Source: a virus. From it: a DNA stretch of 64,000 bases. Both the position numbers and the translations under genes were made by a program. Each line of letters starts with the position of its first letter. Position 1 is the stretch's first letter. The stretch lies in the IMG/VR virus record IMGVR_UViG_3300017991_000051, positions 1 through 64,000 of that record; one strand, given 5' to 3'. Of this stretch, positions 5,704 through 60,218 are shown piece by piece. The notes below the pieces were generated by a model. The model was not told the DNA's origin. It worked only from the letters and a program-made list of their open reading frames with translations, and did not search any database.

Positions 5704-5862
5704 AGTTCCTCCTGAAAAGTGAAGGCCCGGCGGGCGTAACCCGCCGAGCCGTTTAGGTCCGCCCAGGCAAGATTCATCTCATTCCCGCGGTTGCCATCGC
5801 GGCTGAGGTCAGTTCATTCTGCGAGGCGGGGAGGCTTTGCCAGACCAACCAGCCCCGATCGT

Positions 5863-5900
5863 AAATAGGCCCGGGAGGTTTAATGTCGCCCGGGTCGACA
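5863..5900 (-). repeat. orphan copy of the array pseudoknot repeat
   Basis: minus strand tgtcga-cccggg-cgac-attaaacct-cccggg-cctattt, same two stems as the 7606-8771 repeats. Confidence 0.8.
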
Positions 5901-5987
5901 TCTGCGCCTTTACCTACGAATGCCACAACGTAGATATTGTCTGGTAAATAGGGAGCCCAGCGGGCGTGAACCCGCTGGGGTGAAAAA

Positions 5988-6542
5988 CTACTTGGCTGCT
6001 TTACGTACCAGCCTACGGAACAGCTTGTTTGCCTCTGCACGCACGCCCGCCAGCTCGCTGAGCGTACGATATTTGTTGATGAATGCCCGCAACTCGAGTA
6101 GAGCCTCATCGAGAACGTTGTAGCGTTCAATTGGGTCCGAAAGGCTCTGGCTCTCTGATGCGTACACACGGACCGGTCTTCCCGACCCACCAACCAACCC
6201 TGTATGGATCATCGCGGTTACGCGCCAGCTACGCTCTTCCTCTTCACCGTTCGCACGGATGACTACCTTCGTCACTGCGGCCATGATGTACTTGGCTTGT
6301 GACTCCCAGCACGTCTGTGCAGCTTGATGTATATTCCACGTGAACTCGGCGTGGAGCGGACACTTCGGATCCTTCGCCAACTCGACGACATCCCTCACAG
6401 TGTACTTCTTTTTGTTAGCCAGTTTGTCGATGAACTGACCAATCTTTTGGATATCGCCCTTGACGTGGTAGCCAGATCGCTTACGGTATTCGATACGCGC
6501 CCGGCGCCGCGTAGATTTCTTCGCCTTCTTCTTTGTAGCCAT
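5988..6542 (-). CDS. conserved partner protein of the phage Cas7/RAMP-like gene
   Basis: VVELAKDPKCPLHAEFTW...AA....QAKYI and ALLELRAF..KY..LSEL motifs; directly downstream of the RAMP-like gene. Confidence 0.7.
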   Translation of the reverse strand: MATKKKAKKSTRRRARIEYRKRSGYHVKGDIQKIGQFIDKLANKKKYTVRDVVELAKDPKCPLHAEFTWNIHQAAQTCWESQAKYIMAAVTKVVIRANGEEEERSWRVTAMIHTGLVGGSGRPVRVYASESQSLSDPIERYNVLDEALLELRAFINKYRTLSELAGVRAEANKLFRRLVRKAAK

Positions 6543-6610
6543 CGTATCCCTTTCTCAGCATTGTTGGGAGGGGGCCGGCACAATGAGTGCCGACCCCCTC
6601 GGAAATGGAC

Positions 6611-7360
6611 TTACTTCGCAGCCTTCTTCGTCAGCTGTGAAGGCGGCGTGAAGTAATGCAACGGAATCTCACCGTCCTTCTTCACGCGCGCAACCGCGTC
6701 CTTCATCTGCTTCTGGAACAGCTTCTCGTCCGCGGCGCCGGTACCGACATGGAACAGGCCGTACTGGCCAGTACCCGTGCTGGTCTTGCCCTGCGGGCGC
6801 CAGTCGCCGATCCCTACGTGGAAACCAGCGTGCTGGATCAGATTCAACACCTGTTCCTTATTCAGAACATTGGCGTTGAAGTTGATGGTCGCCGTGATCT
6901 TCCACGGCCAAAACTGCGGCCGGTAGCGAAGATCCATGACACCGCTCGCTAAGCGGACGGTATCCTCACGGCATGTACGCACGCCTTCGATATGCACCAA
7001 CGCACCCAGTGGGTCGTCGGCGTCGAACTGGACGAAGCACGCGCCCTTCGTCTGGGCCATGGCTACGCCATCGACGTACCGGCACGCCTCGATCATGCTC
7101 TTCTTGATGCAGATCGCGGGGATGCCGAAGCTGCCATCGGGAAACCAGTAGGTTGCCTGATGGTACTCCCCTTGAACGTCGCGGTCGGATTTGGCCAGTT
7201 TCGGCCAGCCCTGCTGCTTCGACCGAATGGAGTTCTTACTGGTGTCCGTCGGCTGGTTGGTGATGAGTGGAGAGTCACCGTACATGATGTACTCCGCCAT
7301 CTCCCGAACCATCTTCGGGACGTCGATTATTGCTGCTTGTTGTTTTGCTTTCGCTGGCAT
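6611..7360 (-). CDS. stand-alone Cas7/RAMP-fold protein (Vipr-like putative RNA-guided effector)
   Basis: N-terminal strand + GDSPLI, GIPAICIKKSMIEA helix, DLRYRP.F.PW, C-terminal Gly-rich loop AGFHVGIGDWRP...GQYGLFHV; GAAAGGT SD before ATG 7360. Confidence 0.8.
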   Translation of the reverse strand: MPAKAKQQAAIIDVPKMVREMAEYIMYGDSPLITNQPTDTSKNSIRSKQQGWPKLAKSDRDVQGEYHQATYWFPDGSFGIPAICIKKSMIEACRYVDGVAMAQTKGACFVQFDADDPLGALVHIEGVRTCREDTVRLASGVMDLRYRPQFWPWKITATINFNANVLNKEQVLNLIQHAGFHVGIGDWRPQGKTSTGTGQYGLFHVGTGAADEKLFQKQMKDAVARVKKDGEIPLHYFTPPSQLTKKAAK

Positions 7361-7488
7361 CGATGTACCTTTCGTAGTTGTAGGACCGCACAGAATCACA
7401 ATCGCTCCGCGCTAATCCAATAGTTGTTCGATACACTCGTCAACACCTGTACCCTGTAGCTTTACCTCCTTTCATTGGGTGGGTTGAG

Positions 7489-7520
7489 GGCGGAGGGACC
7501 AGATGTTACGTCCCTCCGCC
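7489..7520 (-). terminator. GC-rich hairpin closing the 3' end of the array
   Basis: ggcggagggac-N10-gtccctccgcc perfect 11-bp inverted repeat. Confidence 0.5.
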
Positions 7521-8846
7521 ATACTTACCTGAACGGGCCGGGCCGGACCTTGACTCGGCTAACCTTGCAACTGCATTCCACGCGGCTGACCAGCCTCCAT
7601 AGATAAGTAGGCCTGGGGTTTAGCGTCTCCCAGGAAGACACAACCGTCCTCGACGGGCCCCCGCCTGTCCCCTCATCACGGCGGCTAACAGCACCACGTC
7701 AAATCCGTAGCAGAAAATGGATCTGGGGTTTTGCGTCTCCCAGAAGGACAGAACAACACAAGGACTGACGAGGCCATAACTCACCGTCCTCACAGTAGCA
7801 GGCCTTACCCGACCCGACCTTTCCGTATCAGAAAAATAGGCCCGGGTTGTTTAGCGTCGCCTGGGACGACAAAAACTCACCCGACCTTTCCGTCATCAAC
7901 ATGCCGTGACGTTCGCCTACAAACGAGGCCACACCTTATCAAAATGAAATTGGCCTGGGGTTTTGCGTCTCCCAGGAAGACAGCACGAAACTAGCCCGAC
8001 AGTACCCGACACCAACCTAACTTACCCAGCCTCTACACGCGCAGCCGTGTCAAACGAAATAGGCCCGGGGTTTCGCGTCTCCCGGGAAGACAGGTACGTG
8101 GCCAGAACTAACCTCACGCACGACAACAGGCACGACCCGACCTGACCCAACCTGACCTCGTCAAAGAAAATAAGCCTAGGATGTTTAGCGTCGCCTAGGA
8201 CGACATCAACTCAACATACCGTGCCCGGCATGACCAGACTGCGCCGAACCCCGCCAAGCTGCACCAGGTCAAATGAAATAGGCCTGGGGTTTTACGTCTC
8301 CCAGGAAGACAAGTGGACGTACCTTGGCCGGCATTACCAGACCAAACTACGCCGCGGCAAGCCCGACCAAACCTCGTCAAATGAAATAGGCCCGGGGTTT
8401 CGCGTCTCCCGGGAAGACAATGCTCACAGCGCTATAGCATGCCGCAGCTCGCCCGAACAGGCGGCAACAGACCGAACCCAACGGCGCCCCTCCCAGCCGT
8501 GTCATAATAAATAAGCCCAGGGTTTTACGTCTCCTGGGAAGACAAGCTTTACGGACCCAGCCCGAACGTGCCTTACGAACGCTGACTTAACCAGCCTCTG
8601 CAGGCCGCCCCATACCTTAGCAAAGAAAGTAGGCCCGGGATTTAGCGTCTCCTGGGAAGACAGCTCGGGCCGTACCTTGCCGTCATTACCGTACTACACC
8701 ACGACTCAACTAGCCCGACCAAACCTCGTCAAATAAAATAGGCCCGGGATTTAGCGTCGCCCGGGACGACATACCCGTAACAAACCGAATCTTTCCATAG
8801 GCGAACCTACAGCGACGAACCCAGCCTAACCTAGTCAAATGAAATA
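7521..8846 (-). ncRNA. array of 12 putative guide RNAs built from GGY-NN pentamers, separated by 11 pseudoknot repeats
   Basis: about 40-nt repeats end (+ strand) at 7640, 7750, 7871, 7982, 8092, 8205, 8311, 8419, 8544, 8662 and 8771 (period 106-125 nt); intervening segments are 5-nt periodic, e.g. 8206-8270 minus: gacCT ggtGC agcTT ggcGG ggtTC ggcGC agtCT ggtCA tgcCG ggcAC ggtAT gttGA gttGA. Confidence 0.85.
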
Positions 8847-8847
8847 A

Positions 8848-8873
8848 GCCCGGCGGGCGTGAACCTGCCGGGC
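8848..8873 (-). terminator. hairpin + U-rich tail at the array 5' boundary; related hairpins at 5724-5750 and 5956-5979
   Basis: gcccggcaggttcacgcccgccgggc followed by ttatttcattt on the minus strand. Confidence 0.5.
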
Positions 8874-8960
8874 AGCTAACGAAGAGGCCCGTTCCAGGGT
8901 CGGTCTACCTCGCGTCACGGGCCAACGACACGACGTCCGATTGATTTTTGTACAGAGGAA

Positions 8961-9318
8961 TGGAGCCGCTGGGAGTCGAACCCAGGTCCGTTCGAGAGTC
9001 ACCTAGTGACTCATTCACGTGCGTAGTCGCTGATCTGTATACGGCTCATGCGACAAGCCTCTCACGTCTTTCCGTGATTGCCAGCTCTCCCGCTTTTACA
9101 CCACTGTGTTCGGGTAAGCATCCCACACAGCCGGCGACCCGATGTCGTCGTCAGCACCCGCTATCGGGCGTCACCGGGCTGACGATGGTGGCCTAAGCCG
9201 CCATAGGTAGTGCTTCGTTATCGGCACTTGAATGTTTCCGGATGTTTAACGAGGCCAACCGGAGTCCTCGGCACGCAATCACACAGATCCTTCTCGACGT
9301 CGAATCCATTACGGCCCC
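8961..9318 (-). ncRNA. ssrA: tmRNA, tag peptide (A)ADNEALPMAA
   Basis: 5' GGGGCCGTAATGGATTCGAC; 3' CTGGGTTCGACTCCCAGCGGCTCCA (CCA not encoded); tag ORF 9225-9193 GCC GAT AAC GAA GCA CTA CCT ATG GCG GCT TAG. Confidence 0.95.
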
Positions 9319-58208: not shown

Positions 58209-58685
58209 TTACGACTCCTCCTGTGCCGGATGGTCGGCTTTCGCAAACGGTGCGGGCTGTGTCAAGGCCGAAACCTCAAACCGTCCGTACCCGTCCTGCC
58301 AGCCGTAGGGGGAAATACCCCTATACTCCCCGGCCAAATTGATGATGGTCCTGAATTCATTCGGCGGCAGACCGTTGGGCAGCATCGCCCTGATCACGAT
58401 TTCGTCGCCCGTCATAAATGCTTCATGCTCCGTCCACCTGTTCGCCGCGTAGAAGCGTTTGAACCGCTGGACGTGCCCCTCGATACGCGAGTTCATACGC
58501 ACCTGTCGCACCAGCTTCTGATGCTTGCCGAACGCCTTGGCCCCGTACACGAGGATTCTCCGCCACCAACTGGCCATGAATATGACGGCGCCGCTTCCAT
58601 CACGCTCGAACCGATCGTAGTCCGGCCGGCGGATGCCGCCGAGGCAGGGAGTTATGAATTTGATCTTGACTGCAACTTCTTTCAT
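58209..58685 (-). CDS. small RAMP/Cas7-like protein
   Basis: KIKFITPCLGG, C-terminal AGEYRGISPYG...GYGRFEV Gly-rich loop. Confidence 0.65.
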   Translation of the reverse strand: MKEVAVKIKFITPCLGGIRRPDYDRFERDGSGAVIFMASWWRRILVYGAKAFGKHQKLVRQVRMNSRIEGHVQRFKRFYAANRWTEHEAFMTGDEIVIRAMLPNGLPPNEFRTIINLAGEYRGISPYGWQDGYGRFEVSALTQPAPFAKADHPAQEES

Positions 58686-58712: not shown

Positions 58713-58803
58713 GGACGGCGTGGCATGACGCCCCACCGTCCCCCCGCATCGCGTAGCTGCGCCTCGCCGTGCCGGGCCTAGCCCCGCCTGGCTATGCAGC
58801 GTT
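58713..58803 (-). ncRNA. single GGY-NN pentamer guide-like RNA with 3' structure
   Basis: 11 in-phase pentamers tgcAT agcCA ggcGG ggcTA ggcCC ggcAC ggcGA ggcGC agcTA cgcGA tgcGG, then the ggacgg...ccgtcc stem. Confidence 0.75.
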
Positions 58804-58813
58804 TATTCAAAAA

Positions 58814-59380
58814 TCACGACCAGCGTGTTACATGAAACTTGCCGAACACGCCCCGGTACGTACCGAGGCCGATCAGCGCGCCCCCCTGCTCGAACAACCA
58901 CTTAACCTCGTGTTCATCGATATCCTTCGACTCCAACATGGTCAGGTTGAACTCGAGCGCCCACGGCAGATTCACTACCGGCCGTGGTTTCGGGTTCGGT
59001 ATTCCATGCTTCAGCCGCGGCGTCGCCCGACTTAGCACGATCCCGTTCTTGTCGAATCCCTTAAACACTATACGCTTGCCCTTCCGTGTCAAGGGGATAA
59101 GAAACGGGTCGATGGTAACGACGCCCCGCAGCTTCGTAGCCTTCCGCTTGTACTGCTTTTCCGGGTACAGCAGTTTCGCTGCACTCGTCGTATGCTCTGC
59201 GCATATGAAGCTCATGATGTTCAATGCCGGTATCACCAAACTCTTCCCGTCCGCATCAAAATAGAATTTCTTGTCAGGCGGGAGTTGTACAGCGTTGTCC
59301 CCGCTGTAGGGATCGAACATGATGTCGACAAAGCCCTCGAGCTTCACTCGTCGCGTAATCACTTTCACCGGTGTCGGCAT
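58814..59380 (-). CDS. second stand-alone Cas7/RAMP-like (Vipr-like) protein
   Basis: VKLEGFVDIMF, VIPALNI, RPVV.LPW.LEF, GG..IGLGTYRGVFGKFHV; GAGGAGG SD. Confidence 0.75.
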   Translation of the reverse strand: MPTPVKVITRRVKLEGFVDIMFDPYSGDNAVQLPPDKKFYFDADGKSLVIPALNIMSFICAEHTTSAAKLLYPEKQYKRKATKLRGVVTIDPFLIPLTRKGKRIVFKGFDKNGIVLSRATPRLKHGIPNPKPRPVVNLPWALEFNLTMLESKDIDEHEVKWLFEQGGALIGLGTYRGVFGKFHVTRWS

Positions 59381-60146: not shown

Positions 60147-60218
60147 TGGTGGGCGGGGATGGATTCACACCACCGACCTCCGGGTTGTAGCCCGGCGCTC
60201 TTACTGAGCTACCCGCCC
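60147..60218 (-). tRNA. atypical tRNA (Val-TAC-like) with a 6-nt anticodon loop
   Basis: GGGCGGG/CCCGCCC-A-CCA acceptor, GCTC/GAGC D stem, CCGGG-CTACAA-CCCGG anticodon arm, T loop TGTGAAT. Confidence 0.75.

What the first reader, a model, noticed from the sequence alone, without database searches (positions are those of the whole stretch)
5988..8873. Cas7/RAMP-like gene plus an array of 5-nt-periodic (GGY-NN) RNAs: a non-CRISPR RNA-guided system in a phage
Seen: 12 variable 65-85-nt segments separated by 11 conserved ~40-nt repeats lie immediately upstream of a lone RAMP-fold gene (6611-7360) and a conserved partner (5988-6542). The segments are not random spacers. On the coding strand they are strings of pentamers whose first three bases are constrained (ggt/ggc/gtt/agt/tgc) and whose last two vary freely. 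No cas1/cas2/cas3/cas6 or effector nuclease is in the window. Established: Cas7-type RAMPs polymerise along guide RNA with fixed periodicity. Inference: one protomer binds each GGY while NN reads the target. This matches the VIPR (GGY/NN) architecture as I recall it, which I cannot verify here.
Basis: partly seen in the sequence, partly recalled or inferred. Interest (0 to 1): 0.95.

Follow-up and report, generated by a model that had tools for sequence, protein, structure and literature searches.

The report
Phage VIPR guide-RNA silencing system
A 169-kb uncultured phage carries a complete VIPR system, the CRISPR-related RNA-guided DNA-silencing system first described in 2026 preprints: a small Cas7-like protein, a partner protein and about a dozen five-base-repeat guide RNAs. 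It is a solid new example of a known kind, and its targets remain unknown.

Summary

- **Guide array:** Upstream lie 12 tracts of NN-GGY pentamers. The NN positions carry about 0 bits of information and the GGY positions 0.9/0.85/0.5 bits. Lag-5 autocorrelation has z = 9.
- **Tails:** Eleven tracts end in a conserved 36-38-nt tail. I show it to be an H-type pseudoknot with four covarying pairs, the same topology as the published SUSP1 tail. A twelfth, solo tail lies downstream of the partner gene.
- **Partner gene:** ORF 5988-6542 (-) is the conserved accessory gene of this Vipr clade. A homologue was recovered, nearly always directly downstream of vipr, in most of 83 related loci.
- **Context:** The genome has no cas1 or cas2. 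It carries a second, divergent vipr gene.
- **Targets:** None were found by the published one-base-skip rule, neither in the phage itself nor in three public collections.
- **Local peculiarities:** Vipr and vap belong to the clade that otherwise uses tail-less continuous arrays. The array lies upstream, 85 nt from a phage tmRNA gene. The GGY scaffold is relaxed.

This scan has already noted VIPR on at least 71 other genomes. Verdict: new member of a known kind.

The parts
7531..8847 (-). vrRNA array. Twelve units, each with a U-rich linker (consensus TATTTCATTTGAC, in phase with the pentamers) followed by 11-15 NN-GGY pentamers. Units 1-11 each end in a 3' pseudoknot tail. Unit length is 106-125 nt.
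   Evidence: Lag-5 autocorrelation z 9.1. NN positions carry about 0 bits and GGY positions 0.92/0.85/0.51 bits.
7605..8771 (-). Eleven conserved 36-38-nt tails (8771-8736, 8662-8627, 8544-8509, 8419-8384, 8311-8276, 8205-8168, 8092-8057, 7982-7947, 7871-7834, 7750-7715, 7640-7605). Each folds as an H-type pseudoknot: stem 1 of 5 bp, stem 2 of 6 bp whose 5' arm lies in the loop of stem 1, and an A-rich third loop.
   Evidence: Alignment A2: 97.7% of cells paired, 4 pairs with compensatory changes (12 cells), 0 of 500 shuffles reach the observed value, slid controls 25-55% paired. Model R1 scores 53-62 bits. The topology matches the SUSP1 tails read.
7489..7604 (-). Twelfth (last) pentamer tract, 7597-7532, without a pseudoknot. 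It is followed by a different 11-bp GC-rich hairpin (7520-7489) and then the vipr 5' region.
   Evidence: The same arrangement (last tract plus GC hairpin before vipr) is present in the 51%-identical relative L006.
6611..7360 (-). vipr: a 249-aa Cas7-like RAMP protein. Thumb R147 and G-loop GDWRP (D186, W187, R188) are conserved. A C-terminal helical extension (about 209-249) is shared only with the closest relative.
5988..6542 (-). vap-like accessory gene, 184 aa. Basic N-terminus, an alpha/beta domain with weak winged-helix resemblance, and a C-terminal helical hairpin.
   Evidence: PHROG 15946, E 4e-8. 31% identity (E 9e-33) to the gene after vipr in L006. E 2e-7 to Saal gp52, the gene after the Saal vipr homologue. 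jackhmmer gives 78 hits, nearly all directly downstream of vipr. AF2 pLDDT 89.4. Weak wHTH matches, E 0.04-0.5.
5863..5900 (-). Solo twelfth copy of the pseudoknot tail, downstream of vap. No recognisable GGY tract lies 5' of it and only about 4 GGY-like units lie 3' of it.
   Evidence: R1 49.8 bits..
8847..8872 (-). GC-rich hairpin followed by the same T-rich linker, between the tmRNA 3' end (8958) and the first tract. Probably the tmRNA terminator. Similar hairpins lie at 5979-5954 and 5750-5724.
   Evidence: (family D6).

Best explanation
This is a VIPR (Viral Interference Programmable Repeat) system of a 169-kb phage.

Proposed mechanism:
- The minus strand between about 8847 and 7490 gives rise to at least 11 vrRNAs of roughly 106-125 nt.
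- Each vrRNA consists of a U-rich 5' linker, 11-15 NN-GGY pentamers and a 3' H-type pseudoknot cap.
- The 249-aa Vipr protein (6611-7360) polymerises along each vrRNA, one protomer per pentamer.
- Its thumb arginine (R147) and G-loop (D186, W187, R188) sequester the GGY bases, so only the NN dinucleotides are presented.
- The NN dinucleotides pair with double-stranded DNA, skipping every third target base. The filament then blocks transcription of the target. The most likely target is a gene of a competing phage, satellite or prophage in the same host.
- The 184-aa partner (5988-6542) is the clade's accessory protein (vap), probably DNA-binding, and enhances the effect.

Shown here: homology, fold, conserved contact residues, RNA periodicity, pseudoknot covariation, conserved synteny and absence of self-targets.

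Inferred from the SUSP1 work: filament formation, the one-base-skip code and silencing.

Not known: transcription and processing of the array, the host and the targets.
For: Protein:
- phmmer hit to PDB 36pp 'SUSP1 Vipr protein', E 4.9e-6. Residues R138, D177, W178 and R179 of SUSP1 align to identical residues here. The paper names these as the G1/G2/Y3 contacts and shows that D177A and R138A abolish silencing.
- Profile comparison of family alignment A1 with SUSP1 Vipr gives probability 98.1%, E 1.2e-13.

RNA:
- Five-base periodicity and an NN-GGY logo.
- A 3' pseudoknot with covariation, as reported for SUSP1 vrRNAs.
- Unit length of about 110 nt against about 100 nt published.

Locus and genome:
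- The vipr-vap pair is conserved across related loci, and nearly all of them carry GGY tracts, with one exception always on the vipr strand.
- The genome is a phage with direct terminal repeats, rated 100% complete.
- No Cas1 or Cas2.
- No self-target above the shuffled controls, as published for other VIPRs.
Against: - No target was found for any guide.
- Only 44% of pentamers are exact GGY, so some guides may be impaired or this Vipr may accept a looser scaffold.
- Guide 2 looks like a copy of guide 5 with a 1-nt deletion, and several tracts need a 4-nt unit to stay in register.
- No sigma-70-like promoter was detected for the array.
- Only the C-terminal third of the protein aligns with SUSP1 Vipr by sequence, so H17, K33, E71 and M72 could not be mapped.
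- The partner protein has no detectable similarity to SUSP1 vap1.
- Expression, RNA binding and DNA silencing are untested.
Confidence: 0.92

Rival explanations
1. A decaying or partly inactivated VIPR locus. The proteins are intact, but many guides have drifted (relaxed GGY, register slips, a tail-only remnant). The array would then be largely a fossil with few or no working guides.
For: Exact GGY occurs in only 67 of 151 units, whereas relatives have long runs of exact GGY. Several units are 4 nt long, and guide 2 is guide 5 with a deletion. The solo tail at 5900-5863 has no tract. No targets were found.
Against: - The 11 tails keep both pseudoknot stems through compensatory changes, which implies selection on the RNA.
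- 92% of units keep at least 2 of 3 scaffold positions.
- The closest relative, L006, has the same relaxed scaffold, so relaxation may be a clade property.
- The paper notes frequent internal degeneracy of vrRNAs.
Confidence: 0.06
2. A minimal CRISPR-Cas derivative (for example a type III or IV remnant). The 36-38-nt elements would be CRISPR repeats, the variable segments acquired spacers, and the protein an ordinary Cas7.
For: The layout of regularly spaced conserved repeats with variable inserts next to a Cas7-fold gene resembles a CRISPR array.
Against: - The variable segments are internally 5-nt periodic and G-rich at fixed positions, unlike spacers.
- They are 75-94 nt long.
- There is no Cas1 or Cas2 in the genome.
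- The best sequence match of the protein is the SUSP1 Vipr protein, not any Cas7.
- Relatives carry tail-less GGY tracts instead of repeat-spacer arrays.
Confidence: 0.01
3. The array has a non-guide role, for example protein-sponge or decoy RNAs, terminator or attenuator elements downstream of the tmRNA gene, or regulators of the phage's own genes. It would not target foreign DNA.
For: The array starts 85 nt after the tmRNA 3' end. Each tail is a GC stem followed by a U-rich stretch. No external targets were found. Satellites are reported to use solo vrRNAs as decoy redirectors.
Against: - The NN positions are hypervariable between units while the scaffold and tail are conserved, which is the signature of programmable guides.
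- No match to the phage's own genome exceeds the shuffled controls, so self-regulation is unsupported.
- The terminator scan does not flag the tails.
Confidence: 0.02

Closest known systems
Type II VIPR of Escherichia phage SUSP1 and the Pseudomonas fulva prophage (bioRxiv 10.64898/2026.04.26.720920; structures 10.64898/2026.04.26.720927, PDB 36pp)
   Same: - Lone Cas7-like Vipr with the GDWRP G-loop and the thumb arginine.
- A small non-enzymatic accessory gene directly downstream of vipr.
- An array of discrete vrRNAs of about 100 nt, each a run of about 12 NN-GGY pentamers capped by a conserved 3' H-type pseudoknot with an A-rich loop.
- Phage-borne, with no self-targets.
   Different: - Only about 36% identity over the last 47-67 residues, with the N-terminal two thirds not alignable by sequence.
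- The partner protein shows no similarity to SUSP1 vap1.
- There are 11-12 guides upstream of vipr, against 1 upstream plus 3 downstream in SUSP1.
- The tail sequence is unrelated.
- The scaffold is relaxed (44% exact GGY).
- The protein has a 40-residue C-terminal helical extension.
Vipr-vap loci of actinophages and uncultured phages with continuous ('staggered') NN-GGC arrays, e.g. Mycobacterium phage Saal gp51-gp52 (NC_023580) and IMG/VR loci L010-L089
   Same: These are the closest Vipr sequences (33-40% identity over about 200 residues). They share the same vap family directly downstream. GGY tracts lie on the vipr strand.
   Different: Their tracts are long, continuous and punctuated by 4-nt aGGC units. 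They have no pseudoknot tail: R1 finds none in 85 loci apart from L006. Most lie downstream of vap, whereas here the units are discrete, tailed and upstream.
Class 1 CRISPR-Cas backbone subunits (Cas7/Csm3/Cmr4) with crRNA
   Different: - There is no adaptation module, no Cas5/6/10/11 and no repeat-spacer array.
- The register is 5 nt with 3 bases sequestered and 2 read, not 6 nt with 1 base flipped.
- The target is read with every third base skipped.
- Sequence identity is 8-15%.

Membership tests
VIPR system | Vipr protein homologous to the founding Vipr proteins | tested here: met
   phmmer against PDB: 36pp_D 'SUSP1 Vipr protein', E 4.9e-6. BLASTP against the SUSP1 gene product, E 4e-11. 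hhalign of the 84-sequence family alignment against SUSP1 Vipr, probability 98.1%, E 1.2e-13.
VIPR system | Conserved GGY-contact residues (SUSP1 H17, R138, D177, W178, R179; K33, E71, M72) | tested here: inconclusive
   R138, D177, W178 and R179 align to R147, D186, W187 and R188. R147 and R188 are invariant or nearly so in the family. H17, K33, E71 and M72 lie in the part that does not align by sequence, and the 36pp coordinates were not in the fold library.
VIPR system | vrRNA made of at least 4 (typically 9-16) tandem YNNGG pentamers with hypervariable NN | tested here: met
   Twelve tracts of 11-15 units. Information content is 0.02/0.01 bits at NN and 0.92/0.85/0.51 bits at GGY. Lag-5 z is 9.1. 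The scaffold is relaxed: exact GGY in 44% of units.
VIPR system | Invariant structured 3' tail after the tract (a pseudoknot in the SUSP1 clade) | tested here: met
   Eleven tails directly 3' of tracts. The H-type pseudoknot is supported by 4 covarying pairs, 97.7% of cells paired and 0 of 500 shuffles. That the tail is 3' rather than 5' is inferred from the shared topology with SUSP1 tails, not from RNA ends.
VIPR system | Minimal vipr + vap locus without cas genes or a CRISPR array, usually in a virus | tested here: met
   Two-gene operon. vap family conserved downstream of vipr. No Cas1 or Cas2 in the genome. 169-kb phage with terminal repeats.
VIPR system | vrRNAs are expressed and co-purify with Vipr, and the RNP silences DNA matching the one-base-skip code | not testable with these tools
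   Needs sRNA-seq, pull-down and reporter assays.
VIPR system | Natural targets at 80% or more NN match under the one-base-skip rule, and none in the element itself | tested here: inconclusive
   No self-target: the best match is about 65%, equal to shuffled guides. No target was found in 80 related loci. Exact seeds of guides 1, 4, 5, 6 and 8 found nothing real in viral, metagenome or genome collections.
VIPR type II (SUSP1 / P. fulva type) | vap1-type accessory gene and type II Vipr clade | tested here: not met
   No similarity between the partner and SUSP1 vap1. The nearest Vipr sequences belong to phages with continuous tail-less arrays. The type tables of the paper are not held, so no type is assigned.
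CRISPR-Cas (class 1) | Adaptation genes cas1 and cas2, and a repeat-spacer array with non-periodic spacers | tested here: not met
   No Cas1 or Cas2 while control genomes ring. The 'spacers' are 5-nt periodic.

The most novel reading that the evidence does not exclude
This locus and its one known relative (L006) may define an undescribed VIPR subtype. Its features would be:
- a Vipr and vap of the clade that otherwise uses continuous tail-less arrays;
- a long upstream array of discrete pseudoknot-capped guides with a relaxed G-K-Y scaffold;
- a C-terminally extended Vipr;
- a conserved tail-less last guide before vipr, whose NN code seems better conserved between the two relatives than its scaffold.

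If so, tail-capped and continuous guide architectures can be exchanged between Vipr lineages. One phage would then field two unrelated VIPR systems, plus TIGR-like arrays, as a multi-guide arsenal.
Probability: 0.3. Interest if true: 0.5.

Novelty: new member of a known kind. Interest (0 to 1): 0.35.

Why it matters
VIPR was described only in 2026, and experiments exist for a handful of type II systems from Escherichia and Pseudomonas.

This locus adds a well-supported member from an uncultured 169-kb environmental phage. It has one of the longer discrete guide arrays, at 11-12 guides. Its pseudoknot tail has a different sequence but the same topology as the published one, which helps define what the tail must do. 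Its combination of protein clade and RNA architecture is not described in the text of the papers I could read.

It also shows that a single phage can hold two divergent VIPR systems. The 12 guides are a ready-made set of probes: once the host or its resident mobile elements are sequenced, they predict which genes this phage silences.

Tried and rejected
**Target searches**
- Own genome, all 13 tracts, both strands: best NN match 17-22 of 25-34 positions, the same as shuffled guides.
- 80 related vipr loci plus others (0.5 Mb): nothing above shuffled guides.
- Exact 18-20-base gapped seeds:
  - Guide 5 in viral contigs: one hit (L008) whose next three units match 0 of 6 bases, so it is chance.
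  - Guides 6, 4, 8 and 1 in viral contigs: 0 hits.
  - Guide 6 in metagenome contigs: 0 hits.
  - Guides 5 and 6 in genome contigs: 0 hits.
- These scans allow no mismatch, so the negative result is weak.

**Earlier reading of the same stretch**
- The note that the NN code spells PD-(D/E)xK nuclease motifs (e1-5659493) gained no support. The decoded degenerate peptides gave me no recognisable motif, and no matching gene was found. I could not search protein databases with degenerate peptides.

**Search for relatives of the tail**
- Strict tail pattern: 0 hits in viral contigs. It gave 8 hits in metagenomes, but all lie inside coding sequence without pentamer tracts and score 13-30 bits or not at all with R1, so they are chance.

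**Host identification**
- The closest Vipr relatives are short metagenome contigs.
- The host remains unknown.

**vap fold**
- Foldseek gives only weak winged-helix regulator matches (AbfR2, PadR, MarR-type; E 0.04-0.5).
- There are no Pfam or PDB sequence hits.
- 'DNA-binding' is therefore a lead only.

**Vipr-vap complex prediction**
- The job returned no verdict. It says nothing either way.

**Other**
- Promoter and terminator scan of the locus: no sigma-70 promoter and nothing above the shuffled expectation.
- VIPR type assignment: the supplementary tables are not held.
Full report
**What is there**

On the minus strand, a conserved 36-38-nt element occurs 11 times between 8771 and 7605, spaced 106-125 nt apart. 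It occurs once more at 5900-5863. A covariance model built from these copies finds exactly these 12 places in the whole 169,252-base genome and nowhere else.

The 11 array copies delimit 12 variable segments. Each segment starts with a T-rich linker ending in TTTGAC. It continues, in the same phase, as 11-15 pentamers of the form NN-GGY.

The periodicity is far beyond chance. Identity autocorrelation at lag 5 is 0.397 against 0.270 +/- 0.014 in shuffles (z 9.1), and z is 7.7 at lag 10. Over 151 pentamers, the two N positions carry 0.02 and 0.01 bits, and the three scaffold positions carry 0.92, 0.85 and 0.51 bits (G 78%, G 72%, pyrimidine 87%). Exact GGY is present in 67 units, and at least two of the three scaffold positions in 139 units.

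Among 80-nt tiles of the window, the array tiles rank at the top for lag-5 identity. Only one other place in the window, around 58800, ranks higher.

**The protein**

ORF 6611-7360 (-) encodes 249 residues. Public gene calls on the same contig use the same start.

- Its only significant match among all PDB chains is 36pp, 'SUSP1 Vipr protein' (E 4.9e-6).
- The aligned stretch runs from the thumb to the glycine-rich loop. SUSP1 residues R138, D177, W178 and R179 align with R147, D186, W187 and R188.
- The cryo-EM preprint names these as the contacts that hold G1, G2 and Y3 of each GGY. It reports that R138A and D177A abolish silencing.
- A profile of 84 family members matches SUSP1 Vipr with probability 98.1%.
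- The family is large: 2,728 representatives of 50%-identity clusters at E<=1e-3. It corresponds to PHROG 4652.
- The AlphaFold model is confident (pLDDT 92.8, pTM 0.86).
- Residues 209-249 form a helical extension shared only with the nearest relative.

**The tail**

The alignment of the 12 copies supports an H-type pseudoknot. Stem 1 pairs columns 1-5 with 13-17. Stem 2 pairs columns 7-12, inside the loop of stem 1, with columns 26-31. An A-rich loop lies between them.

- 97.7% of cells are paired.
- Four pairs show compensatory double changes (12 cells).
- No shuffle out of 500 reaches the observed values.
- Sliding the partners by 1-3 columns drops pairing to 25-55%.

The SUSP1 tails that I read from the phage record have the same topology, with a short stem 1, a 6-7-bp stem 2 and an A-rich loop 3, but an unrelated sequence. 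[quoted passage not shown] On that basis I read each unit as linker, tract and 3' tail, which gives 11 complete vrRNAs.

The twelfth tract (7597-7532) is followed instead by an 11-bp GC hairpin (7520-7489) and then the vipr leader. The same arrangement is present in the relative L006.

The solo tail at 5900-5863 has no pentamer tract in front of it. I cannot explain it. It may be the remnant of a downstream guide.

**The partner gene**

ORF 5988-6542 (-) encodes 184 residues, with no Pfam or PDB sequence match.

- It is 31% identical (E 9e-33) to the gene that follows vipr in L006.
- It is similar (E 2e-7) to gp52 of Mycobacterium phage Saal, the gene that follows the Saal vipr homologue gp51.
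- An iterative search seeded with it recovered 78 ORFs among the open reading frames of 83 related loci. Nearly all lie immediately downstream of vipr on the same strand.
- It is therefore the conserved accessory gene of this Vipr clade.
- It shows no similarity to SUSP1 vap1.
- Its model (pLDDT 89.4) gives only weak matches to winged-helix regulators. A DNA-binding role is plausible, and in line with what the paper says of several vap genes, but it is not established.

**Relatives and architecture**

- Nearly all of the fetched related loci carry strict GGY period-5 tracts (four of 84 scanned have none). With one exception the tracts are on the vipr strand, and most lie just after vap.
- In those I read (Saal, L011, L051), the tracts are long and continuous. 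They are punctuated by 4-nt aGGC units and have no tail. This fits the 'staggered arrays' of the paper.
- The tail model finds nothing in 85 such loci except L006.
- This locus thus combines the protein pair of the continuous-array clade with discrete pseudoknot-capped guides of the SUSP1 kind. Its array lies upstream of vipr and its scaffold is looser.
- I could not assign one of the seven published types because the type tables are not held.

**Genome context**

- The window is the first 64 kb of a complete 169,252-base virus record with direct terminal repeats.
- A tmRNA gene lies at 8958-9318 (-), 131.5 bits. It ends 85 nt before the array. Between them is a GC hairpin with a T-rich tail that looks like its terminator.
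- The genome has no Cas1 or Cas2.
- It has a second PHROG 4652 gene at 58814-59380 (-). That gene is followed by 11 pentamers of NN-GGC type, so it is a second, divergent VIPR.
- The two Vipr proteins are not alignable by BLASTP.

**Targets**

I applied the published rule, replacing each GGY by one wildcard and searching both strands.

- No guide matches the phage's own genome better than shuffled guides do. This agrees with the absence of self-targets reported for other VIPRs.
- No guide matches the 80 related vipr loci.
- Exact gapped seeds from five guides found nothing real in the viral, metagenome or genome collections.
- The collection scans tolerate no mismatch and the host is unknown, so this is a weak negative.

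**How it most likely works**

By homology with SUSP1, Vipr protomers bind one pentamer each. They hide GGY and expose NN, and the pseudoknot caps the 3' end. The filament invades double-stranded DNA whose sequence matches NN-x-NN-x, and it blocks transcription.

What is shown here is membership: protein, residues, RNA code, tail, synteny and viral context. Filament formation, the pairing rule and silencing are inferred. Transcription, processing and targets are unknown.

**Verdict**

The kind has been in print since April 2026, and this scan has noted it in at least 71 other genomes. The finding is therefore a new member of a known kind.

Its local peculiarities are the architecture mix, the 11-12 guides, the relaxed scaffold, the neighbouring tmRNA and the second VIPR in the same phage. 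They give it moderate interest.

Noticed in passing
window 58745-59380 (-): A second, divergent vipr gene lies at 58814-59380 (188 aa; PHROG 4652 E 6e-9; SUSP1 Vipr E 0.006). About 13 nt after its stop come 11 in-phase pentamers of NN-GGC/NN-NGC type. ORF 58209-58685 (-) follows and ends in a glycine-rich loop, but it matches the Vipr profile only weakly (probability 8.6%).
   Followed up: partly
window about 58790-58767 (-) and L003 (Mycobacterium phage Saal) about 2293-2316: By eye, the tract after the second vipr gene and the Saal NN-GGC array share an identical run of about 24 nt, which is four consecutive units with the same NN code (ta, cc, ac, ga). I roughly estimate the chance probability as below 1% over all unit alignments. 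The two guides may aim at the same conserved target motif.
   Followed up: no
window 8958-9318 (-): The phage encodes a tmRNA (Rfam 131.5 bits; tag peptide ADNEALPMAA). It ends 85 nt upstream of the first guide on the same strand. No promoter was detected for the array, so read-through from the tmRNA gene is conceivable.
   Followed up: no
window 7597-7532 (-) against L006 40-110: The last, tail-less tract is partly conserved between this phage and the 51%-identical relative. By hand count on alignment A7, 12 of 18 NN bases are identical against 12 of 27 scaffold bases. This is not statistically significant. It hints at an orthologous guide for a conserved target (sense decoding roughly D-W-A-V/L-I-V/A).
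   Followed up: partly
window 8679-8771 and 8327-8419 (-): Guides 2 and 5 are paralogues, 83% identical over 93 nt. They share the first three and last three NN pairs, and guide 2 has a 1-nt deletion that breaks the pentamer register.
   Followed up: partly
window 8847-8872, 5954-5979 and 5724-5750 (-): Three copies of a similar GC-rich hairpin bracket the locus: after the tmRNA, after vap, and about 200 nt further downstream. Only the last is scored as an intrinsic terminator. They are probably the phage's usual terminators.
   Followed up: no
window 60147-60218 (-): ARAGORN could not assign the anticodon of a tRNA-like gene here (Rfam tRNA, 53.5 bits).
   Followed up: no
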